Source of the DNA: Thermodesulfobacteriota bacterium
Lineage (GTDB): Bacteria; Desulfobacterota; Binatia; Bin18
Assembly (NCBI GenBank): GCA_964291405.2
Contig: OZ219926.1
Location: forward strand, 1,888,001-1,952,000
DNA length: 64,000 bases
Direction: 5' to 3'
The translations under genes were made by a program, and so were the position numbers. Below, in pieces: positions 831 through 60,270 of this stretch (positions are counted from its first letter, which is position 1; every line of letters begins with the position of its first letter). Under the pieces are notes generated by a model. It was not told the origin of the DNA. It saw nothing but the letters and a program-made list of their open reading frames with translations, and made no database searches.

Positions 831-1919
831 TTATGCATGAATCTCTTTTGTGGTGATGGTACTCCCGGAGCTTCCCCGGACCAAGCCTGGCACGGCAGCA
901 GAAAAACGGCCTGCCGTGCCACCCGCGACCACAATAAGAATACTCTCCGGTGCGGGAAACTTCGGATAGAGGGTGTCATCAGTCGGCGGCTCGGCCTGGA
1001 CGTTGACGCCAGCCAACATACTCACTCCGGCTCCCTCTCCGCCGTTGACCCCAGGCCGGAGTTCACGTAGCGGGCGACGGATGTGTTCAAATAAAAATTG
1101 ACGAAGATCATTTTTAGACCATCCATCCTGGGCAAAGGTCTTGGCATGCTCCGGTCCGACAATCAGCGCCGTATCCGAGAACACCGGAAAATTCTTGTGA
1201 TTCCAGACCGAGGCCATAGTCCAGCCAAGCGAGAGAGCCAACTGCTCTGCGCTGCGACTGGCATGGTCATTGATCTGAAGCGGGGAGTGACCACCAAACA
1301 GGGTGACGGTACTCTGTTCTGGACGAAAACCTTTCTCTACGTGCAGCGGCTCCCACGGACTCTCCTCCTCGGCCTCGCCAATACAGAACGTGAATTGGGC
1401 TGGATGGCCCAGGGTTGCCTTGCAAATCTCTTGGGGCTTCGCGCCGCCAATGTTGAGAATAATCAGGCGCAGCGCCCGCCCGATCGTGGCATTCGCCCGA
1501 AATCCATGGCCCAGGGCATTATGCCCGCAATTCACCCCAATGGTATGGCGCATGGGACCGTTAATAATCGTCAGTGGGGTTGCCGAGAATGTGGTGACGT
1601 TAATAGCGTGGGCCGCAAACTGTTCTTCACACAAGGCTTCCACCGCAGCGACGACAACCGGAAAATATGACGCCTGACACCCCGCCATCACCGCATTAAT
1701 CGCAACTTTTTCCAGACTGGCCGGTCCATAGTTGGGTCCTACCGTCCCCAAGACCTCTTGTGGGTCGCGGTCCACTACGGCGAGCAGCGCCATAACGCGT
1801 TCTGCGGTTGGCGGAACAACCGGCAGCCCATCGGTGAGTCCACTTGAAAAGAGGGCTTCAAAAGGGTCGTTCTCCTGAATATCGATGGGTTGTGAATGGA
1901 ATGCGGCAGCGTCCGCCAT
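831..1919 (-). CDS. Conserved hypothetical protein, partner of UGSC (seleno)proteins
   Basis: GLTDGLPVVPPT, EKVAINAVMAGC, RANATIGRALRL and EESPWEPLHVEKG motifs. Lies immediately upstream of the UGSC gene. Confidence 0.8.
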   Translation of the reverse strand: MADAAAFHSQPIDIQENDPFEALFSSGLTDGLPVVPPTAERVMALLAVVDRDPQEVLGTVGPNYGPASLEKVAINAVMAGCQASYFPVVVAAVEALCEEQFAAHAINVTTFSATPLTIINGPMRHTIGVNCGHNALGHGFRANATIGRALRLIILNIGGAKPQEICKATLGHPAQFTFCIGEAEEESPWEPLHVEKGFRPEQSTVTLFGGHSPLQINDHASRSAEQLALSLGWTMASVWNHKNFPVFSDTALIVGPEHAKTFAQDGWSKNDLRQFLFEHIRRPLRELRPGVNGGEGAGVSMLAGVNVQAEPPTDDTLYPKFPAPESILIVVAGGTAGRFSAAVPGLVRGSSGSTITTKEIHA

Positions 1920-1988
1920 GTCTCCCCTCCAAGCCTGCCCAGCCTTTCATTCCTGGCATACGGCTGTCAACATTAGGTGCCGGTCGGC

Positions 1989-2543
1989 TCAGTCGAGCAA
2001 TCTTTCTTCGAACACATCGTCCGGACCATACTGCGCCTGAAACGCCTGAAGCGCACGATTGAAGGCCGGGTCTTCTTCCGCATCGAGCAGCGCGTCCGCC
2101 GCGGACGGACCGAGCCGGGCCACGGCTGCCTGCCAGAGCTCCAGTCGCGGCGGAGACAGGGGAACGGACACGGTGTAGTGCAGTTCGGTATCGTCACTGA
2201 GCAGGATAACCGTCAGCTTCTCCTGTCGGACGAGCTTCCGCAGAATGGCGGTGTCGCTCGCCTGTCTCGGGTTGAGATAGAACACGCCGCCCTTGCTCCC
2301 CCCAAACGTCGGGTGCAGTTGGTAGCCGATGGCCACCACCCATATCCCCTTTGGGCTCTGCCACGTACACAGACTCAGGCTGAGCGGCAGGGGCGCGTCA
2401 ATAAACCAGCCCAGGTCTTCGACCCGGCTGACAACGGCCAACTCTTGTGTGCCTTCACGGTCAATAAACCGGACGGAGTACAGGGGTTCTTCCATTAAAA
2501 GCAGCCAGCTTTCTCGGTTAATCACCACACCGATCGGTTGCAT
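1989..2543 (-). CDS. Hypothetical protein (184 aa)
   Basis: Part of ORF 1989..2756. The likely start MQPIG is preceded by GAGGAG. No family recognised. Confidence 0.6.
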   Translation of the reverse strand: MQPIGVVINRESWLLLMEEPLYSVRFIDREGTQELAVVSRVEDLGWFIDAPLPLSLSLCTWQSPKGIWVVAIGYQLHPTFGGSKGGVFYLNPRQASDTAILRKLVRQEKLTVILLSDDTELHYTVSVPLSPPRLELWQAAVARLGPSAADALLDAEEDPAFNRALQAFQAQYGPDDVFEERLLD

Positions 2544-2697
2544 TGGGGGCACTCCTCTCCTCACGCGCTTGACCCACAGGCACGCATCTATCATACATGG
2601 CACTCGCATGGCAGGTTCGACGCCGGAACGCCCAGGGGCCACAGCGGGGCGTTCGGTGCAAAGGGCGCAAACACCGGTCATCACAAAAGGAGGGACC

Positions 2698-3984
2698 ATG
2701 GCGAGGCCGGTCAGGTATAAGATCGTTGGACTGCTGTTCTCCGGAACCATCATCAACTACATCGACCGGGTGAATATCTCTGTTGCCGCGCCGGTTATCA
2801 TGGCCGATTCCGGCTGGAGTAAGAGCGAGTTCGGGATGGTCTTTTCCGCCTTCCTGGTTGGCTACGCCGTGCTTCAGTTACCGGGCGGCCTGGTGGCCGA
2901 TCGTTGGAGCGCACGGAAAGTGCTGGCCCTCGCCTTTTGTGGCTTCTCGCTTTTCACGGCCTTGACCCCGCCGGCCATTGCTGCCTTTTGGCTGCTGCTC
3001 AGCGCGCGCTTTCTGGTCGGCATGTTTGAGTCCGTGACCATTCCGGCGCTCACCTCTGTCAACGCCCGGTGGATTCCGCGGGCCGAGTTCGGCCGCGCGC
3101 AGACCCTGAGCGTGTCCGGCGTGACGGTCGGTCAAATGATTGCCTACCCGCTCACCACCTGGATTATTCTCAACTTCTCCTGGCAGCTCGTCTTCTATTT
3201 TAACGCCCTGCTCGGCTTTGTCTGGGCGGCGGTGTGGCTGTGGTCTTCCACAGACACGCCCGGTGAGCATCCAAAGATTGATGCAGCGGAACGCAGCTAT
3301 ATTGAATCAAACCTGCCCCCCCGTCCGGCCGTTCCGCTGCCGTTGTGGACCGTGTTTTCCAGCGCGTCGCTGCTGACCGTGACCCTGGCCTTTATGTGTT
3401 TTGCCTACGTGCTGTGGATGTTCCTGTTCTGGTTTCCGACCTATTTGGTGGAGGCGCGCGGCATGTCTCTGGGGGTCATGGGCACAGTCGGCATTTTTAT
3501 GCACGGCGCGTCGTTCCTCGGTGTTATTGGAGCTGGGATGCTGTCAGACTGGCTGCTGCGCAACGGCTGGAATGCGCAGTTCGCCCGCGTGCGCTTTGGT
3601 GCTTTCGGCCTCACCCTGGCCCTGCCCTGCCTGGTTCTGGCGGCTCAGACCTCCTCGCCGCTGATCTGTACCGTTTTTCTGGTTCTTTTTTACGGACTGT
3701 TCAGTATGGGCATCGGGGTGTTTACCACTGTTGCCCTGGAGTTTAATCCACATCAAGCCGGCGCTATCTTCGGCATGATGAATACGCTCGGGACCTTTGC
3801 CGGGGTTCTGGGTCCCTGGTCCGCCGGGCAGATGATTGAGTACAGCGGAGGAGATTGGACCATACCGCTGTTTGTCGCGACCGGGGTGGGAGCAGTCAGC
3901 GCCCTCATCCTATTTGTGGTCAAGATCAGGAAGATCGAAATAAAGGACGTTGCCTTGGCGGAGGCAGCGCAAAGCGGTTCATGA
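2698..3984 (+). CDS. MFS transporter (anion:cation symporter-like)
   Basis: INYIDRVNISVAAP motif, about 12 hydrophobic segments, RBS AGGAGG before ATG 2698. Confidence 0.9.
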   Translation: MARPVRYKIVGLLFSGTIINYIDRVNISVAAPVIMADSGWSKSEFGMVFSAFLVGYAVLQLPGGLVADRWSARKVLALAFCGFSLFTALTPPAIAAFWLLLSARFLVGMFESVTIPALTSVNARWIPRAEFGRAQTLSVSGVTVGQMIAYPLTTWIILNFSWQLVFYFNALLGFVWAAVWLWSSTDTPGEHPKIDAAERSYIESNLPPRPAVPLPLWTVFSSASLLTVTLAFMCFAYVLWMFLFWFPTYLVEARGMSLGVMGTVGIFMHGASFLGVIGAGMLSDWLLRNGWNAQFARVRFGAFGLTLALPCLVLAAQTSSPLICTVFLVLFYGLFSMGIGVFTTVALEFNPHQAGAIFGMMNTLGTFAGVLGPWSAGQMIEYSGGDWTIPLFVATGVGAVSALILFVVKIRKIEIKDVALAEAAQSGS

Positions 3985-4017
3985 GTATATGATAATAGTG
4001 ATGGAGAGGAGGACCCC

Positions 4018-4317
4018 ATGGCAGATCGACAGAAACTCTCGGATACGGACATTCAGGCCAGGCTGGGCAGTATGCCGGGCTGGAGCGTAGTCGACGGGAA
4101 GTTGCACCGGGAGTATAAGTTCCAGGACTTTGTCCACGCCTTTGGTTTTATGGCCAGTGCGGCCCTGGTGGCGGAATCCATGAATCACCATCCCGAGTGG
4201 TTCAACGTCTACAGCACGGTGAACGTTGACCTGGCCACCCATGACGCCGGAGGCATTACCGAGCTGGACTTTACCCTGGCCGACAAGATGGAAGAACTCG
4301 CCAGCGCAGACAGTTGA
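4018..4317 (+). CDS. phhB: Pterin-4-alpha-carbinolamine dehydratase
   Basis: AESMNHHPEWFNVYSTVNVDLATHDAGGITELD signature. Confidence 0.9.
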   Translation: MADRQKLSDTDIQARLGSMPGWSVVDGKLHREYKFQDFVHAFGFMASAALVAESMNHHPEWFNVYSTVNVDLATHDAGGITELDFTLADKMEELASADS

Positions 4318-4403
4318 AAACCGATTACCGTTTCCTCTCCCCTGGCGAGCTGAGGGCCTGACAGTTTGGCAGAGACTGGGAATCCGGGGGCAGGAAACAG
4401 CAA

Positions 4404-4474
4404 CTCCCCTCCTGGGAGGGCGGCTATCCTGGCCGCCATGCGGGCTGGAAGCCCTCACTCCTAAAGGAGGAGAG
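4404..4474. repeat. REP-like palindromic cluster
   Basis: Hairpins CTCCC...GGGAG, GGCGGCTA-TCC-TGGCCGCC and GGGCT-GGA-AGCCC, between convergent genes. Confidence 0.5.
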
Positions 4475-4556
4475 AGGCGCGCTACACAGCATCGTGATTT
4501 GCTCTAGGGTGAGGGGTTCCCAACGGGGAACAGCTTTCGGCTGTCCCGCTCCTGCG

Positions 4557-5753
4557 TCAGATAACGCCCGCTTGTTCGAGCTTTTGCAGCTTTTCTGCGG
4601 AGAGACCCAGTAGACCCTGGTAAACGTCGCTATTGTGCTGGCCGAGCAGCGGGGCGGGAGTGACTTCGACCGGGGAGTCGTCGAGTTGGACCGCGCAGCC
4701 GGGCATGGTGATGCTGCCGCGGGTTGGATGTTCGACGGTGGCGACCATGCCGCGTTCACGCAGCTGTGGGTGGGTGAAAATATCGTGTGAGTCAAAAACC
4801 GCCCCACACGGCACACCGGCCTTTCCAAATCGTTCCATAACCTCGAACTTGGTGTACCGGGTGGTCCAGGCGCAAATAATGTCATACACCTCGTCAAAGC
4901 GGGTGTTGCGCTCGGACGTGGCGGTATAGCGCGGATCGCCGATCAAATCTTCGCGCTCAATCGTGCGCAGTAAACTCTCCCACATCCGCGGCGTCGTGGA
5001 CATGAGATAGACGTAGTCGTTGGGTCCGCCCGGCGCGCAGGGATAGGTGTCTGTAGGAGCGGCATGGCTGAGGCGGTTGCCGCTACGCTGCACCACGGCA
5101 TCGGCCTGAAGATGGTGGCGCATGGGCACCCGCATGTAATTGACCACCGCGTCCTGCATGGACACTTCCACGTGCTGCCCCTTGCCCGTTTTACCCCGCT
5201 GCAACAGGGCGGCCAGAATGCCGACGGCGCAGTGGATACCCGTGCCGGTATCGCCGATAGTCGGGCCGGGTTTGAGCGGCGGCGAGTCGGGCAGGCCGGT
5301 AATGCTCAGGGCTCCGCCGGTTGACAGGGCAATCGAGTTGAAACTCTTATACTCGCTCCACGGCCCGGATGTGCCAAAGCCCTTGATGGTGGCATAGATC
5401 AGCCGCGGGTCGAGCTGCTGCAAGTCCGCATAGCCGAGGCCCAGCCGTTCCATGGTGCCCGGAGAGAAATTCTCCAACACGACGTCGACCTGCGGGATCA
5501 GGGAGCGGAAGAGATTACGGCCCGGCTCAGTCTTGAGATTGAGGGTAATGCTGCGTTTATTGGCGTTCAGCAGAATAAAGAAATGCGAATCGAGCCCCGG
5601 CTCGTTGGTCAGAAAGTTTCGCCCCGACTCGCCGGTGCGGGGTGGTTCGACCTTAATCACGTCCGCGCCCAGAAAGGCCAATAACTCCGTACACGACGGA
5701 CCGGCTTCAAAATGCGACAAATCGAGAATACGCACATGATCGAGAGCGAGCAT
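4557..5753 (-). CDS. Class III CoA-transferase (formyl-CoA transferase/CaiB-BaiF family)
   Basis: AGPSCTELLAFLGADVIKVEPP, NANKRSITLNLK, IGDTGTG (catalytic Asp), APLLGQH. Confidence 0.92.
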   Translation of the reverse strand: MLALDHVRILDLSHFEAGPSCTELLAFLGADVIKVEPPRTGESGRNFLTNEPGLDSHFFILLNANKRSITLNLKTEPGRNLFRSLIPQVDVVLENFSPGTMERLGLGYADLQQLDPRLIYATIKGFGTSGPWSEYKSFNSIALSTGGALSITGLPDSPPLKPGPTIGDTGTGIHCAVGILAALLQRGKTGKGQHVEVSMQDAVVNYMRVPMRHHLQADAVVQRSGNRLSHAAPTDTYPCAPGGPNDYVYLMSTTPRMWESLLRTIEREDLIGDPRYTATSERNTRFDEVYDIICAWTTRYTKFEVMERFGKAGVPCGAVFDSHDIFTHPQLRERGMVATVEHPTRGSITMPGCAVQLDDSPVEVTPAPLLGQHNSDVYQGLLGLSAEKLQKLEQAGVI

Positions 5754-6763: not shown

Positions 6764-6798
6764 AAACCCACCCCGGCCTACGGCCACCCCTCCGAGGA
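6764..6798. repeat. REP-like element, left part (split by IS1595)
   Basis: AACCCACCCCGGCCTACGGCCACCCCTCCGAGGA is identical to the start of the intact copy at 35564. Confidence 0.85.
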
Positions 6799-6899
6799 GG
6801 GAATTATATACGGTCTTACCCAACCCGACACAGGGAAACTTTGTGTCAGGAATTGCATTTCCCAACATGTTACGCTAATTCTAGCACAGGAGATGTACC

Positions 6900-7079
6900 A
6901 TGAAGTCTACAAAAAAGGCGAATCACAAGCGCACCCCTGCGTCTAATAAGGGCGGGCGTCCTGCCCGCCCTATGCCGGAGTTGATTCCTGATACGCCAGA
7001 GGGCATCGCTAAGGCGTGCATGCAAGGGCCGCCGAAGAAAGACAAAGACTGGCGGTATACGGCAGAGGGCCAATCCTGA
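6900..7079 (+). CDS. IS passenger small protein (59 aa)
   Basis: AGGAG RBS. MKSTKKANHKRTPASNKGGRPARPMPELIPDTPEGIAKACMQGPPKKDKDWRYTAEGQS. Below the ORF-track cutoff. Confidence 0.6.
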   Translation: MKSTKKANHKRTPASNKGGRPARPMPELIPDTPEGIAKACMQGPPKKDKDWRYTAEGQS

Positions 7080-7109
7080 TAGGTGGGGTAATACACCAAA
7101 GGGAGGACC

Positions 7110-7241
7110 ATGCCGGACCAGGCTCATTTTGATGAATATTTCAATTCTGTTGATCCTAGAAAACCTCCTGAAGAGTCAGGCGAAAATGTAGAGGACAGAA
7201 GACCAACGAGGCTGAGAGAAGAGATTAGCCATCGTTCTTAG
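7110..7241 (+). CDS. IS passenger small protein (43 aa)
   Basis: GGGAGG RBS. MPDQAHFDEYFNSVDPRKPPEESGENVEDRRPTRLREEISHRS. Stop is 9 nt before the next ATG. Confidence 0.4.
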   Translation: MPDQAHFDEYFNSVDPRKPPEESGENVEDRRPTRLREEISHRS

Positions 7242-7250
7242 GGGTGCCAT

Positions 7251-7565
7251 ATGAAACATATCACTCTTGATGTGTCGGACGAGTTTTTTGAGGCTCTTAG
7301 CGAGCTGTCAGGGATTACGGAACCGGATACAGAGGGAGATCGTATAGCAAGATTATTGACATCATCCATTCGCACCTATGAATGGCTGCTCTATCAGCAA
7401 TACCAAGGAAGGAAATTAGTTGTTCTCGATCCGAGTGACCTTGAATTTCTCCAGGGGAAACTGCACGAATTGCGCGAGTACGGCAAGAAGCCTGACTCCG
7501 TATCTACACTTTTCCCAGAAGACAGAAAACCTCAGCTTGAAGAGTATTTTCACAAAGCTGCTTAG
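7251..7565 (+). CDS. IS passenger protein, possible ribbon-helix-helix DNA-binding protein
   Basis: N-terminal HITLDVSDEFFEALSEL...IARLLTSSIRTY has an RHH-like beta-alpha-alpha pattern. Confidence 0.55.
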   Translation: MKHITLDVSDEFFEALSELSGITEPDTEGDRIARLLTSSIRTYEWLLYQQYQGRKLVVLDPSDLEFLQGKLHELREYGKKPDSVSTLFPEDRKPQLEEYFHKAA

Positions 7566-7567
7566 TG

Positions 7568-7921
7568 ATGAGTGCTCCCGAGTTGGGAGGAGCGCCCTCT
7601 AGGTTTTCATCTTCTGACTTAAAAGAAACCCCGGAAAGCCGAATCTCCCGTATAGAGGGGAAGATAGATTCTTTTGCCACTAAGGAAGATATCCAAAAGC
7701 TTAAAGTGTGGATTCTGGGCGGTATGGCAGTGATAGGTGGAGCAGTTCTTCTGTCTATTTTTACAGCATTTGCTAGGGTATTTTTCAGTCAAACTCAAAT
7801 TTTTACTCCGCAATCAAATCCGAGTAGCGCAACCGCTTATTCGTCATCCCCCGTGCCATCTGTTCCATCTGAACAGCAGTATCAAGCGGGCGTTGGTTGT
7901 GACGACCAGCAAACTCCTTGA
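7568..7921 (+). CDS. IS passenger coiled-coil/transmembrane protein
   Basis: RISRIEGKIDSFATKEDIQKL followed by hydrophobic VWILGGMAVIGGAVLLSIFTAF. The 3' end overlaps the transposase convergently. Confidence 0.55.
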   Translation: MSAPELGGAPSRFSSSDLKETPESRISRIEGKIDSFATKEDIQKLKVWILGGMAVIGGAVLLSIFTAFARVFFSQTQIFTPQSNPSSATAYSSSPVPSVPSEQQYQAGVGCDDQQTP

Positions 7922-8738
7922 CATAGCGGTCCAAGTGTTTCTCACTCATCTTGTGATAGGTGCCGTAGTATCCGCGTTTGAGCATCGACCAGAAGGACTC
8001 TATGCCGTTTGTATGGGCTTGCCCGTTGACGTACTCCCCAACGCTATGCTTGACCGCTTCGTGATTGTCTAAGCCGATATAACCACCGTGCTCGTCCGTG
8101 TAGACCTTCGCTCCGTCTTCTTTCCGGGTATTCACAAACTCTTGTAGCGTCTCTTGATTAGTCCGCTCGACCACAGAGGCTTTCACGGCATTGGAGTCCC
8201 GGTCCTTCATACCGACCACAGCGGTCTTGCCGATTGTTCCGTTGGCGTTCGGGATTTTCTTGTCAGCATGTTTGTTCGCGTTCTTGCCACCCATGTAGGT
8301 CTCGTCTACTTCGACCGGCCCAGCAAAGGATGGCGTGTTATCTGCCCACGTTTCCCGGATACGGTGTGCCAAGTGCCAGGCTGTCTTTTGCGTGATGCCT
8401 AAGTCCCGGTGCAGCTTCATGCTCGACGTGCCCTTGATGCCAGTAGACATCAGGTAGAACGCCAGCGCCCATACTCGGTATCCCAGGTTTGAGCCTTGCA
8501 TCAGAGTTCCCGTCTTGACGGAAAAGTCTTTCCGGCACTCACGGCAACGGTAGGGCTGAGGCTTCCGGCTCTTGCGCTCTTGCACGTTGTCAGAATCGCA
8601 AGCTGGGCAATGCACCCCATCCGGCCAGCGTGTGTCGATAAACCATTGCTCAGCAGTCGCATCATCAGGAAACTTGTCCTGCAACTGTATGAGCGTCATG
8701 CCTTTTCTGTAGTGTTTGCCGGGTGCGTTCTGTGCCAT
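7803..8738 (-). CDS. IS1595-family transposase
   Basis: Zn ribbon CPAC...CREC, HTH (KLHRDLGITQKTAW), DDE motifs VEVDETY / VYTDE / HTNGIESFW, and the C-terminal HLDRYVKEF. Confidence 0.95.
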   Translation of the reverse strand: MAQNAPGKHYRKGMTLIQLQDKFPDDATAEQWFIDTRWPDGVHCPACDSDNVQERKSRKPQPYRCRECRKDFSVKTGTLMQGSNLGYRVWALAFYLMSTGIKGTSSMKLHRDLGITQKTAWHLAHRIRETWADNTPSFAGPVEVDETYMGGKNANKHADKKIPNANGTIGKTAVVGMKDRDSNAVKASVVERTNQETLQEFVNTRKEDGAKVYTDEHGGYIGLDNHEAVKHSVGEYVNGQAHTNGIESFWSMLKRGYYGTYHKMSEKHLDRYVKEFAGRHNQRPLDTAVQMEQMARGMTNKRLRYSDLIAE

Positions 8739-8763
8739 CTCGTTCCCTCCAAGTTATGGAAGA

Positions 8764-8792
8764 ATTTTACCCAAAAACGACACAAAAGTCAA
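8764..8792 (-). promoter_or_regulatory. sigma70-type promoter of the transposase
   Basis: Minus strand TTGACT-17 nt-TAAAAT, about 25 nt upstream of the ATG. GGAGG RBS. Confidence 0.7.
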
Positions 8793-8952
8793 GTGTTTTT
8801 AAGGGGTTTTCTATAAGAAATTTATGAATGTGCAACTTAGGATTATCCTATTCCTCATTATGCTGGGGATTGAGGGGCTCAGCCCCTTGACATGTGATAT
8901 ATATGAAGGCTAGGAGAGGCTTAGGGGAACCGTGGTGGAGCCTCTATTAGGA

Positions 8953-9058
8953 AGGCGGTGACCGGAGTCGAACCGGCTTCGACGCGAATGCCCTGGAAAG
9001 CTCTCGCGCCGAACCAAGGGTTGCCAGCCCTGTGCCTTAACCGTTCAGCCACACCGCC
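8953..9058 (-). tRNA. Non-canonical tRNA-like gene: anticodon GGC, U73, ~38-nt variable arm, no encoded CCA
   Basis: Acceptor GGCGGTG/CACCGCC. D-arm GCTGAACGGTTAAGGC. Anticodon arm (C)AGGG-CTGGCAA-CCCT(T). Variable stem TTCGGCGCGA...TCGCGTCGAA. T-arm GCCGG-TTCGACT-CCGGT. Confidence 0.8.
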
Positions 9059-9066
9059 TAACACTG

Positions 9067-9099
9067 AAGCAGCCCTGGGGATGTATCCCAGGGCTGCTT
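9067..9099. terminator. Perfect 13-bp hairpin next to the tRNA-like gene
   Basis: AAGCAGCCCTGGG-GATGTAT-CCCAGGGCTGCTT followed by TATTT on the plus strand. Confidence 0.55.
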
Positions 9100-9236
9100 T
9101 ATTTGTGCTATGTTATTTCTTGTGTGTCAAGCGACAGTGACCACAATATATAGTATGTACTCTATCCGCGTGATCTCGCTTGATTATTAGCTTGTCTGTC
9201 AATCATATTATTTGGGTAACATTGTATATAATTCCC

Positions 9237-9299
9237 TCCGAGGAGGGGAGCTTTTTTATCCCCTCTTGGGAGGGGTGCCGCGCAGCGGCGGGGTGGGTT
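9237..9299. repeat. REP-like element, right part
   Basis: TCCGAGGAGGGGAGC...ATCCCCTCTTGGGAGGGGTGCCGCG...GGGGTGGGTT matches 35590-35653. Confidence 0.85.
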
Positions 9300-59833: not shown

Positions 59834-60270
59834 CAGTCCTCCGGTCTTTTTGCGCCATAGCACGTGTACTGTCCGGTGAGTAGGGGCAGATTTTCAATCC
59901 ACCCTCCCATAGCGACCGTCACCCCAGCTTGGGCTTCGTGACCTTCACCGCCGCCCACAACGCGACCAGAAAAAAACTCGTCAGGAAAATGAAATCCTGA
60001 GCGACGAGGGTAAAGCCCAAGAAACACTGGGATTATGAGGCACGGACAGGCCGAAAACGCACCCGCTCAGGCGGCTGATTTTGGTACACACGTATATAAT
60101 TCCCAAGCACTTCAATATGCAAACGGCCAAAAAACAACGGGAAGAAGGGCAACCTGTTGTCTATGTGAGCATCAAACGACTTGCCTTTGATAGAGCCTCT
60201 CGACTGGTCGGAACAAAGATCGAGCGCATTGAGCACGCGGCGTGGGATCAACGGAGAGAGGCTCACTGCG

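What the first reader, a model, noticed from the sequence alone, without database searches (positions are those of the whole stretch)
8953..9058. Non-canonical tRNA-like RNA carried inside an IS1595 element, upstream of and co-oriented with the transposase
Seen: the minus strand reads GGCGGTG TG GCTGAACGGTTAAGGC A CAGGG CTGGCAA CCCTT GG TTCGGCGCGA-GAGCTTTCCAGGGCAT-TCGCGTCGAA GCCGG TTCGACT CCGGT CACCGCC T. This is a full cloverleaf with a perfect 7-bp acceptor stem, a GG D-loop and a TTCGA T-loop. The identity signals conflict. The anticodon is GGC (Ala), but the acceptor has C3:G70 rather than the AlaRS determinant G3:U70. U73, the G1-G2-C3 start and the D-arm look like tRNA-Cys, and the loop CUGGCAA is Cys CUGCAAA with GCA shifted by one. 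The variable arm is a ~38-nt hairpin (10-bp stem plus an inner stem), far longer than in typical Ser/Leu/Sec tRNAs. An extra A(-1):U pair would give an 8/5 Sec-like acceptor/T fold followed by U-C-C. CCA is not encoded. Established: long variable arms are SerRS determinants, and IS1595 members can carry passenger genes. Inference: intact stems suggest a conserved RNA rather than decay. It could be a mistranslating tRNA, a decoy for anticodon nucleases or VapC-type toxins (abundant in this window), or a structured RNA acting in transposition control or targeting. I do not know of an IS family described as carrying such an RNA.
Basis: partly seen in the sequence, partly recalled or inferred. Interest (0 to 1): 0.9.

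Follow-up and report, generated by a model that had tools for sequence, protein, structure and literature searches.

The report
Odd alanine-reading tRNA carried by IS1595
A jumping gene in a sponge-associated bacterium carries a well-formed but rule-breaking transfer RNA gene that reads alanine codons yet lacks the alanine identity marks, and relatives of it sit beside another jumping gene, so mobile DNA may be spreading code-bending tRNAs.

Summary
Window 8953-9058 (-) is a 106-nt tRNA-shaped sequence (Rfam tRNA, 47.5 bits; ARAGORN misses it). It lies inside an IS1595-family element (6799-9236) with inverted ends and an 8-bp target duplication; a same-genus genome has the empty site. It is not a conserved IS1595 RNA: none of 80 related loci has it, and the stretch between the IS end and the transposase promoter varies from 64 to 1190 nt. 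It is also not a one-off wreck. A related Binatia genome holds two homologues flanking an IS1-family transposase. All three share a GGC...GCC-U73 acceptor end, a Ser-type D arm, a long variable arm (24-38 nt) and alanine anticodons (GGC, UGC, CGC), with compensatory stem changes and canonical tRNA loops. Four other delimited IS1595 relatives carry different tRNAs whose anticodon does not fit the body. Best reading: mobile cargo, a dual-identity (missense) tRNA or tRNA mimic. Unexplained: all five long-arm IS-borne tRNA-likes have an intrinsic terminator on the opposite strand abutting their 5' end (0 of 51 host tRNAs do), and the window copy has no recognisable sense promoter. No RNA data exist, so expression, charging and function are inferred.

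The parts
8953..9058 (-). tRNA-like gene: 7/5 cloverleaf, anticodon GGC (Ala), C3:G70, U73, 38-nt variable region, no encoded CCA
   Evidence: Rfam RF00005 47.5 bits. Sequence read. Own model R1 134.1 bits on itself, next best in the genome tRNA-Cys 51.9 bits. Family model R2 95.1 bits.
9065..9101 (+). Intrinsic-terminator-like hairpin (16 pairs, then a T-rich tail) on the strand opposite to the tRNA-like, starting 7 nt from its 5' end
   Evidence: Terminator scan. Own rule: 5 of 5 long-arm IS-borne tRNA-likes have one, 0 of 51 canonical tRNAs of the genome.
8887..8892 (+). TTGACA box on the opposite strand beyond the tRNA-like 3' end. No properly spaced -10 by my rule.
   Evidence: Sequence. 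Alignment with the two homologues, which have TTGACA-17-TATGTT and TTGACA-17-TATAGA at the matching side.
8805..9210 (.). About 406-nt cargo segment in the variable slot between the IS end and the transposase promoter. It holds the tRNA-like and its flanking hairpins.
   Evidence: Leaders of related IS range from 64 to 1190 nt. One contig of run X1 joins 8804 to 9211 and carries 4 variant letters at 8739-8773 (what lies between is not known).
9212..9236 (-). Inverted end of the IS next to the tRNA-like (GGGAATTATATAC...TTACCCAA)
   Evidence: Inverted repeat I1. Sequence. Same end type in related loci.
6799..6823 (+). Other inverted end of the IS
6791..6798 (.). Target-site duplication TCCGAGGA, left copy, the core of a REP-like palindrome
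   Evidence: Sequence. Empty site with one palindrome in a same-genus genome.
9237..9244 (.). Target-site duplication TCCGAGGA, right copy
   Evidence: Sequence..
7803..8738 (-). IS1595-family transposase, 311 aa
   Evidence: Pfam. NCBIfam. 425 relatives found in genome contigs.
8764..8792 (-). Promoter-like site of the transposase (TTGACT-17-TAAAAT), downstream of the tRNA-like
   Evidence: Conserved in L011 and L014 leaders.
7251..7921 (+). Two small cargo ORFs (104 and 118 aa), convergent with the transposase, no family match
   Evidence: No Pfam or NCBIfam hit. Similar pair read in L014.

Best explanation
The sequence is a real, selectively maintained tRNA-shaped gene. It belongs to a small family (3 copies in 2 Binatia genomes) of class-II, 7/5 tRNA-likes. 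They combine a tRNA-Cys/Gly-type acceptor end (G1 G2 C3 ... U73), a tRNA-Ser-type D arm, an over-long variable arm and alanine anticodons (GGC here, UGC and CGC in the relatives). It is cargo. It sits in a variable slot of an IS1595-family element that inserted recently, with an 8-bp duplication, into a REP-like palindrome. It is not part of the conserved transposition machinery. Inferred mechanism: the RNA folds as an L-shaped tRNA and is matured by RNase P and CCA addition. It is charged by a synthetase that ignores the anticodon (SerRS through the long arm is the likeliest; not AlaRS, because G3:U70 is missing). It then reads GCN alanine codons as a missense tRNA. Alternatively it acts as a tRNA mimic without entering translation. 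A convergent transcription unit on the opposite strand, whose terminator abuts the tRNA 5' end, probably controls it. Shown: structure, family, covariation, IS boundaries, cargo status. Inferred: expression, processing, charging, decoding.
For: Rfam tRNA hits on the sense strand for all three copies: 47.5, 55.4 and 42.3 bits. Nothing comparable is on the other strand. On the model-fitted alignment 95.4% of cells pair, 10 of 33 pairs change on both sides, 0 of 500 shuffles reach this, and slid controls pair at 34.6-51.2%. The positions that vary and those that do not follow tRNA rules: U8, A14, G18 G19, A21, U33, A37, T54 T55 C56 and A58 are invariant, and 15 and 57 stay purine. The three anticodons keep G35 C36 and vary only at the wobble base, as an isoacceptor set would. 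The family model scores at least 95 bits only in G000 and one other genome. Next come canonical tRNA-Ser(UGA) at 60.9 bits or less and tRNA-Cys, so it is a Ser/Cys hybrid and not a copy of a host tRNA. IS status rests on the inverted ends, the 8-bp duplication and the empty site. Cargo status rests on absence from 80 related loci and variable leaders. Four other TIR-delimited IS1595 relatives carry intact tRNAs whose anticodon does not fit the body: L073 Leu-like/CGC, L062 Leu-like/GGA, L040 Arg-like/GAC with C33, L072 Arg-like/GCU. Three of these encode CCA. Precedent in passages read: long-arm tRNAs with G73 or U73 and non-Ser anticodons were serylated and active in E. coli, and were linked to transposable elements or toxin-antitoxin loci (PMC5389517). 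Natural dual-identity Pro tRNAs mistranslate in bacteria (PMC10404621, abstract).
Against: No recognisable sigma-70-type promoter lies on the sense strand within 150 nt for the window copy, L093a or L062 (16 of 51 canonical tRNAs have one by the same rule). No terminator follows the sense 3' end. The only clear signals are on the opposite strand: a terminator in 5 of 5, and a 10/12 promoter in the two G064 copies. CCA is not encoded, though many canonical tRNAs of this genome lack it too. The copy is single and the family is rare: 2 of 55 genomes of the taxonomic family, and 0 of 150 other genomes sampled from the phylum. The minimum-free-energy fold is not the cloverleaf. U73 is not the usual bacterial tRNA-Ser discriminator, and the geometry at the base of the variable arm differs from the host's tRNA-Ser (my reading). 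The covariation rests on 3 sequences, two of them paralogues, on an alignment fitted to the structure.
Confidence: 0.45

Rival explanations
1. Neutral hitch-hiker. A tRNA gene picked up by a mobile element from flanking DNA, now free to drift, with a mutated anticodon and an expanded variable arm. It has no function for host or element.
For: Single copy. Absent from the closest IS relatives. No sense promoter found. No encoded CCA. A related IS lies 55 nt from a canonical tRNA-Ser gene (L016), which shows how capture could start. L015 carries a degenerate tRNA-like that Rfam no longer detects.
Against: Three diverged copies keep every stem through compensatory changes and keep the tRNA-specific loop bases. 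All three have Ala anticodons that differ only at the wobble base. No host tRNA is a near copy.
Confidence: 0.2
2. The functional product is the opposite-strand small RNA: promoter, reverse complement of the tRNA-like, then an intrinsic terminator. The tRNA likeness is ancestral, or serves pairing with tRNAs.
For: A terminator-like hairpin with a T tail on the opposite strand abuts the tRNA 5' end in 5 of 5 long-arm IS-borne tRNA-likes and in 0 of 51 canonical tRNAs. Near-consensus promoters lie 12-14 nt before the reverse complement in L093a and L093b. This is the layout of an ordinary small-RNA gene.
Against: Conservation follows tRNA tertiary-structure rules on the sense strand, which an antisense function would not require. 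Rfam finds nothing significant on that strand. In the mirror fold the long arm would lie between the first arm and the anticodon-like arm, which is not a tRNA layout (my reading). The window copy, L062 and L073 lack a promoter by my rule.
Confidence: 0.15
3. Decoy or spare tRNA against tRNA-cutting toxins (anticodon nucleases, VapC-type PIN toxins). It soaks up or replaces the target, to the benefit of the mobile element or host.
For: tRNA cargo on mobile DNA as counter-defence is an established idea; one search listing calls mycobacterial tRNA arrays a putative anti-defence system (PMC12803027, listing only). That some VapC toxins cut Cys, Ser, Leu and Ala tRNAs in the anticodon loop is recalled, not checked here.
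Against: No nuclease or PIN gene lies within the IS. A spare tRNA should keep a cognate identity, and these do not. Nothing here tests cleavage.
Confidence: 0.1
4. IS-encoded structured RNA that guides or regulates transposition, in the manner of IS110 bridge RNA or IS200/605 omega RNA.
For: It lies between the IS end and the transposase, co-oriented with it.
Against: 0 of 80 related IS1595 loci have it. The slot holds unrelated DNA in L011, L012 and L013, and nothing in minimal elements with 64-149-nt leaders. Homologues flank a transposase of another family. Other cargo tRNAs lie on either side of the transposase in either orientation.
Confidence: 0.03

Closest known systems
allo-tRNAs and 'irregular' tRNAs of Mukai et al. 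2017 (PMC5389517; passages read)
   Same: Long variable arm. Discriminator G73 or U73. Anticodons that do not match the body (35 codons reported). Found near transposon-related genes and toxin-antitoxin loci. Some are active as missense or nonsense suppressors in E. coli, others inactive or toxic.
   Different: allo-tRNAs are defined by an 8/4 or 9/3 acceptor/T branch, whereas this family is 7/5. The predominant allo-tRNA anticodons reported are UAU, GCG and GUC, not Ala. They were found mainly in Acidobacteria, Clostridia, Proteobacteria and phages. No antisense unit is described in the passages I read. Their supplementary figures, which I could not open, may hold closer forms.
Canonical tRNA-Ser(UGA) and tRNA-Cys(GCA)
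   Same: These are the best non-family matches to the family model, at 60.9 bits or less and 59.5 bits or less. The D arm and long arm are Ser-like. The acceptor end GGC...GCC-U73 and the CCGG T stem are like the host tRNA-Cys.
   Different: The anticodon is Ala. U73 replaces the usual Ser G73. The variable region is 24-38 nt, against about 13-21 nt in host class-II tRNAs (my estimate from the tRNA lengths) and a short loop in tRNA-Cys.
Dual-identity mistranslating tRNAs (tRNA-ProX of Streptomyces/Kitasatospora; PMC10404621, abstract read)
   Same: Natural bacterial tRNAs that join the body of one identity to the anticodon of another. They are toxic or beneficial depending on conditions.
   Different: Those are class-I Pro tRNAs encoded next to a dedicated ProRS isoform. 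Here no synthetase gene is nearby, the body is class II, and the genes ride on insertion sequences.
IS-encoded non-coding RNAs (IS110 bridge RNA, IS200/605 omega RNA; recalled, one review title seen in the listing)
   Same: A structured RNA gene inside an insertion sequence, next to the transposase.
   Different: Those RNAs are conserved in position and sequence across their IS family and are needed for its action. This one is absent from related IS1595 copies, is tRNA-shaped, and recurs with another IS family.
IS1595-family insertion sequences with passenger genes
   Same: DDE_Tnp_IS1595 and zinc-ribbon transposase, inverted ends, 8-bp duplication, cargo beyond the transposase.
   Different: My searches listed no paper on tRNA cargo in this family. 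This subgroup targets a REP-like palindrome.

Membership tests
tRNA (Rfam RF00005, general cloverleaf) | Score above the curated gathering threshold, full-length match | tested here: met
   47.5 bits against 29, model positions 1-71.
tRNA (functional, translating) | Transcribed, 5'/3' processed, CCA-tailed, aminoacylated | not testable with these tools
   No RNA run is listed among the holders. No sense promoter by my rule. CCA not encoded.
tRNA-Ala | G3:U70 wobble pair in the acceptor stem (established AlaRS determinant), A73 | tested here: not met
   C3:G70 and U73 in all three family members.
tRNA-Ala | Anticodon NGC | tested here: met
   GGC, UGC, CGC.
tRNA-Cys | U73 and anticodon GCA at 34-36, short variable loop | tested here: not met
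   U73 is present, but the anticodon is GGC and the variable region is 38 nt. The host tRNA-Cys scores only 51.9 bits on R1.
tRNA-Ser | Long variable arm, Ser anticodon, G73 | tested here: not met
   The long arm is present. The anticodon is Ala and the discriminator is U. SerRS charging itself was not tested.
tRNA-Sec | 13-bp acceptor/T branch (8/5 in bacteria), UCA anticodon, extended D stem | tested here: not met
   7/5 by Rfam. The A(-1):U73 pair is not kept in the homologues. The anticodon is GGC and the D stem has 3 pairs. The genome has its own tRNA-Sec.
allo-tRNA | 8/4 or 9/3 acceptor/T branch of 12 bp | tested here: not met
   An eighth acceptor pair would be U8 opposite U65 in the window copy and in L093a (my reading). 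The T stem has 5 pairs in 3 of 3 copies.
IS1595 family element | DDE_Tnp_IS1595 transposase with N-terminal zinc ribbon | tested here: met
   Pfam 5.6e-38 and 1.7e-08. NCBIfam 181.9 bits against 75.
IS1595 family element | Terminal inverted repeats and 8-bp target duplication (the family value is recalled) | tested here: met
   Ends at 6799-6823 and 9212-9236. TCCGAGGA is duplicated. Empty site in G004.
IS-intrinsic guide or regulatory RNA | Conserved presence and position in related copies of the same IS family | tested here: not met
   0 of 80 related loci by blastn and by model R1. Leaders are variable.
Type I toxin-antitoxin-like sense/antisense pair | Convergent overlapping transcripts, toxic sense product, antisense RNA that neutralises it | tested here: inconclusive
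   Opposite-strand terminator in 5 of 5 and strong opposite-strand promoters in 2 of 5. Toxicity and transcripts were not testable.

The most novel reading that the evidence does not exclude
Insertion sequences of sponge symbionts spread self-contained 'code-bending' modules. Each holds a class-II tRNA whose anticodon was switched to another amino acid's codons (here Ala codons read by a Ser- or Cys-chargeable body). It is paired with a convergent antisense RNA that keeps it in check. This would be a tRNA-based addiction or conditional-mistranslation module, in which the toxin is a missense tRNA and the antitoxin its antisense RNA.
Probability: 0.12. Interest if true: 0.9.

Novelty: new variant of a known kind. 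Interest (0 to 1): 0.66.

Why it matters
If these RNAs are charged and used, then small transposable elements, and not only phages and plasmids, move tRNAs that change the meaning of very common codons. Alanine codons are presumably among the most used in a GC-rich genome such as this one (not measured here). That would make insertion sequences vectors of regulated mistranslation or of a new kind of selfish toxicity. It would also give a natural, compact 7/5 long-arm scaffold with a free anticodon, of interest for genetic-code engineering. If they are not used in translation, the opposite-strand terminator found in five of five cases (two unrelated tRNA bodies, in MAGs labelled Binatia, Arenicellales and Ca. 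Rariloculus) points to an undescribed sense/antisense RNA module built on a tRNA fold. Either way, standard tRNA finders miss them: ARAGORN found 0 in the window, so such genes are probably under-counted.

Tried and rejected
Near-identical copies elsewhere. An exact 30-mer gave 0 hits in viral contigs. An anticodon-arm plus T-arm pattern gave 0 hits in metagenome contigs. A family-derived degenerate pattern gave 0 hits in metagenome contigs and 0 in viral contigs. blastn of the whole element against PLSDB plasmids gave no match.

BLAST of the 106 nt against 60 relatives gave only 21-25-nt T-arm matches, in 6 of the 60.

Expression. The look-up of sequencing runs listed no RNA holder. The stretch is held complete by two runs of two studies and in part by a 2015 sponge metagenome. 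The laid contigs are identical over the tRNA-like. These show presence of the DNA only.

Sec-like 8/5 fold: rejected, because the -1 base is not conserved.

'Cys anticodon shifted by one': rejected as a separate signal, since NGC followed by A37 always gives GCA at positions 35-37.

Two 311-aa ORFs near the G064 copies are not IS1595 transposases. No aminoacyl-tRNA synthetase gene lies near either locus. Three other IS1-like copies in G064 and one in G000 have no tRNA-like beside them.

An attempt to build a general tRNA model from R1 hits gave a noisy alignment (A2), which I dropped. ARAGORN at 85% thresholds gave mostly noise, and I used only its default-threshold calls.

Supplementary files of PMC5389517 could not be opened and may show related irregular 7/5 tRNAs.

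Not in print, as far as my searches go. Searches listed no paper describing tRNA genes as IS1595 cargo, or long-arm tRNAs with Ala anticodons. I judged this from titles and abstract starts only.

G182 is flagged unpublished. It enters only as one of the 150 genomes without a family match.
Full report
OBSERVATION

Rfam's tRNA model matches these exact coordinates full length at 47.5 bits (gathering 29, E 4.8e-07). It is the only Rfam match in the window. ARAGORN reports 0 tRNAs in the window. From the sequence and the Rfam alignment:
- The acceptor is GGCGGUG/CACCGCC, with C3:G70 and discriminator U73.
- The D stem has 3 pairs plus G13:A22, and the D loop has GG.
- The anticodon loop is CUGGCAA (GGC), over a 4-bp stem plus C27:U43.
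- The variable region is 38 nt, the T stem has 5 bp and the T loop is UUCGACU.
- UCC follows instead of CCA.
The variable-arm hairpin (10 bp plus an inner 4 bp) is part of the minimum-free-energy fold, but the whole MFE is not the cloverleaf (z = -2.76).

THE MOBILE ELEMENT

The ORF at 7803-8738 (-) is an IS1595-family transposase. It matches Pfam DDE_Tnp_IS1595 at 5.6e-38 and Zn_ribbon_IS1595 at 1.7e-08, and NCBIfam at 181.9 bits against a cut-off of 75. Inverted ends lie at 6799-6823 and 9212-9236. They are flanked by a direct repeat TCCGAGGA at 6791-6798 and 9237-9244. This repeat is the core of the palindrome CCCCTCCGAGGAGGGG, which has 11 further exact copies in the genome.

A same-genus genome (G004) has the two flanks abutting on a single copy of that palindrome. 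So the element (6799-9236, 2438 bp) is a recent insertion, and the tRNA-like came in with it. The tRNA-like lies 215 nt upstream of the transposase start and is co-oriented with it. It sits upstream of the transposase's own promoter-like site at 8764-8792.

Contigs of two public runs from two studies cover the element without a difference. A 2015 sponge metagenome holds parts of it. This shows presence of the DNA only.

NOT A CONSERVED IS1595 RNA

The search for related loci found 425 relatives of the transposase and kept the best 80. Most are MAGs labelled Binatia, Latescibacterota, Dehalococcoidia, Acidobacteriota, Arenicellales and the like. None of the 80 holds the tRNA-like, by blastn or by a covariance model of it (R1).

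I could delimit the inverted ends (GGG[A/G]ATTATATA type) in 44 of the 80 loci: 42, and L015 and L072. The distance from the end to the transposase start ranges from 64 to 1190 nt, and the inserts are unrelated. The closest relative (L011, 93% identical transposase) has a 1.1-kb insert with an ORF in this slot. One contig of run X1 joins window 8804 to 9211 and carries four variant letters in 8739-8773. It looks like a sister copy without this 406-nt segment, though what lies between is not known. The tRNA-like is therefore cargo in a variable slot.

NOT A ONE-OFF EITHER

In its own genome the tRNA-like is unique. The best other match to R1 is the canonical tRNA-Cys (51.9 bits), then tRNA-Gly(GCC) at 41.7 bits. 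The genome has a full set of 51 ARAGORN tRNAs, including Ala GGC/UGC/CGC, Cys and Sec.

I searched the 50 genomes behind the IS loci with R1. One Binatia genome (G064, the same assembly as G125) gave two hits above every tRNA-Cys:
- L093 1501-1592 (+), 63.3 bits, 92 nt, anticodon UGC.
- L093 382-474 (-), 56.1 bits, 93 nt, anticodon CGC.
Rfam scores them 55.4 and 42.3 bits as tRNA.

All three copies share G1 G2 C3 ... G70 C71 C72 U73, the D arm GGCUGA..GG..A.AGC, a CCGG T stem and a long variable arm. In all three the anticodon loop reads C-U-N-G-C-A-N. On the model-fitted alignment 95.4% of cells pair and 10 of 33 pairs change on both sides. No shuffle out of 500 reaches this, and sliding the partners drops pairing to 34.6-51.2%. 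Caveat: there are only three sequences, two of them paralogues, and the alignment was fitted to the structure. The invariant loop positions are those that tRNA tertiary structure needs: U8, A14, G18 G19, A21, U33, A37, T54 T55 C56, A58. Positions 15 and 57 stay purine.

A model of the three (R2) scores at least 95 bits only in G000 and G125 among 150 relatives. The next hits, at 60.9 bits or less, are canonical tRNA-Ser(UGA), then tRNA-Cys and tRNA-Leu. Counts of genomes holding the family:
- 2 of 55 genomes of the taxonomic family.
- 0 of 150 other genomes sampled across the phylum.
- 0 hits for degenerate patterns in the JGI metagenome and IMG/VR collections.
G182, flagged unpublished, is one of the negatives.

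The two G064 copies flank, pointing outward, a 277-aa transposase with a weak IS1-family match (Pfam DDE_Tnp_IS1, 27.2 bits against 24.1). Other IS1-like copies in G064 and G000 have no such neighbours.

A WIDER PATTERN IN THIS IS1595 SUBGROUP

Rfam scans of all 80 loci gave 9 tRNA hits in 7 loci.
- Two are canonical chromosomal genes just outside an IS (L016; the IS end lies 55 nt from tRNA-Ser).
- Four lie inside delimited elements: L073 4959-5058 (-), L062 1617-1714 (-), L040 3527-3599 (+) and L072 4572-4644 (-).
- Three lie near transposases whose IS ends I could not define (L030, two hits; L034, one hit).
- L015 holds a degenerate tRNA-like in its leader that only ARAGORN calls.

The four internal ones are intact cloverleaves (51.6-67.9 bits), and in each the anticodon does not fit the body:
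- L073 and L062 resemble tRNA-Leu but carry CGC (Ala) and GGA (Ser), with variable regions of about 30 nt.
- L040 and L072 resemble tRNA-Arg but carry GAC (with C33) and GCU.
L040, L062 and L073 encode CCA. Many of the 80 loci are copies of one element within one genome, so these numbers are not frequencies.

AN UNEXPLAINED SHARED FEATURE

In all five long-arm IS-borne tRNA-likes (window, L093a, L093b, L062, L073) a strong hairpin lies 1-14 nt from the tRNA 5' end. It is preceded by an A run, which makes it an intrinsic-terminator-like site on the opposite strand. By one fixed rule this holds for 5 of 5, and also for L015. It holds for 0 of 51 canonical tRNAs of G000, and for none of L040, L072, L034, L030a and the two L016 tRNAs.

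The two G064 copies also have near-consensus promoters on that strand, 12-14 nt before the reverse complement: TTGACA-17-TATGTT and TTGACA-17-TATAGA. The window copy and L062 have a TTGACA box there but no good -10, and L073 has neither. 3 of 51 canonical tRNAs reach 9/12 by the same rule.

On the sense strand I found no promoter for the window copy, L093a or L062. By the same rule 16 of 51 canonical tRNAs have one. So the clearest transcription signals belong to the opposite strand, while the conservation pattern belongs to a sense-strand tRNA. I cannot resolve this without RNA data, and no RNA run is listed.

MECHANISM

What is shown: a conserved tRNA fold, a small family with Ala anticodons, and carriage on insertion sequences as cargo.

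What is inferred: AlaRS should not charge it, because it lacks G3:U70 (established determinant). CysRS needs GCA at positions 34-36. Synthetases that ignore the anticodon are the candidates. A long arm with G73 or U73 is what Mukai et al. take as SerRS identity in allo-tRNAs, several of which inserted Ser at non-Ser codons in E. coli (PMC5389517, passages). The nearest canonical relatives are tRNA-Ser(UGA), one base away from UGC. I therefore favour a missense (Ala codon to Ser, less likely Cys) tRNA or a tRNA mimic, under antisense control, at 0.45.

Rivals: a neutral captured relic (0.2), the opposite-strand small RNA as the real product (0.15), a decoy for tRNA-cutting toxins (0.1), and a transposition guide or regulator (0.03).

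COMPARISON AND NOVELTY

The closest described things are the allo-tRNAs and irregular tRNAs linked to transposable elements and toxin-antitoxin loci (PMC5389517; review PMC7609411, passages), and the dual-identity tRNA-ProX (PMC10404621, abstract). This family fails the allo-tRNA definition, being 7/5 and not 8/4 or 9/3. It has no adjacent synthetase. It differs in riding on IS1595 and IS1 elements and in the opposite-strand terminator. My four literature searches listed nothing on tRNA cargo of IS1595 or on long-arm Ala-anticodon tRNAs (titles and abstract starts only). I rate it a new variant of a known kind, interest 0.66. The boldest reading the data allow is a tRNA-toxin/antisense-antitoxin or conditional-mistranslation module spread by insertion sequences (probability about 0.12).

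Noticed in passing
L073:4959-5058 (-), inside IS 2406-5157: 100-nt tRNA with a tRNA-Leu-like body, A73 and encoded CCA, but anticodon CGC (Ala) and a variable region of about 30 nt. It lies between a methyltransferase-HNH-like ORF (my reading of the translation, not tested) and the IS end. An opposite-strand terminator lies 14 nt from its 5' end.
   Followed up: partly
L062:1617-1714 (-), inside IS 843-4900: 98-nt tRNA-Leu-like body with anticodon GGA (Ser), a long variable arm and encoded CCA. An opposite-strand terminator at 1716-1741 abuts its 5' end.
   Followed up: partly
L040:3527-3599 (+) and L072:4572-4644 (-): Class-I, tRNA-Arg-like cargo tRNAs inside IS1595 relatives. L040 has the loop CCGACGA (C33, GAC) and L072 has anticodon GCU. 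L034 4270-4343 (GCU) and L030 5248-5433 (ACC plus a 6-nt loop) are similar oddities near transposases whose IS ends I could not define.
   Followed up: partly
window 6787-6802, 9234-9249, 9260-9275 and 11 other genome sites: REP-like palindrome CCCCTCCGAGGAGGGG, often followed about 27 nt later by a second hairpin CCCCTC..GAGGGG. The IS1595 subgroup inserts in its centre, here and in L011-L013.
   Followed up: partly
window 7251-7565 (+) and 7565-7921 (+): Two overlapping small ORFs (104 and 118 aa; the second looks membrane-anchored) inside the IS, convergent with the transposase. A similar pair is in L014 (3677-3988 and 3339-3674, -). No Pfam or NCBIfam match.
   Followed up: partly
window 60092-60104; G000:C3:3971354: Solitary 13-mers identical to the IS ends (GTATATAATTCCC / GGGAATTATATAC), possibly remnants of other copies.
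   Followed up: no
G000:C1:15798-15897 and G000:C3:4095579-4095661: ARAGORN calls a 100-nt 'tRNA-Val(cac)' and an 83-nt 'tRNA-Gln(ctg)' with poor-looking stems. They may be false calls or further odd tRNA-likes.
   Followed up: no
L175:1497-1579 (G101): ARAGORN calls an 83-nt tRNA-Leu-like sequence with a long arm and anticodon GUC (Asp) in the genome that also holds L062. No IS1595 transposase lies within 1.5 kb.
   Followed up: partly
L049, L052, L073 tails (about 1.6-1.7 kb after the transposase): Many elements of this IS1595 subgroup carry ORFs with DNA-methyltransferase-like motifs (DPPF / DPPW, read from translations, not tested against Pfam). So orphan methylases seem to be common cargo.
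   Followed up: no
L016:1128-1215 and IS end at 1270: A related IS1595 element lies 55 nt from a canonical tRNA-Ser(GCU) gene. This is the kind of neighbourhood from which a tRNA could be captured.
   Followed up: no
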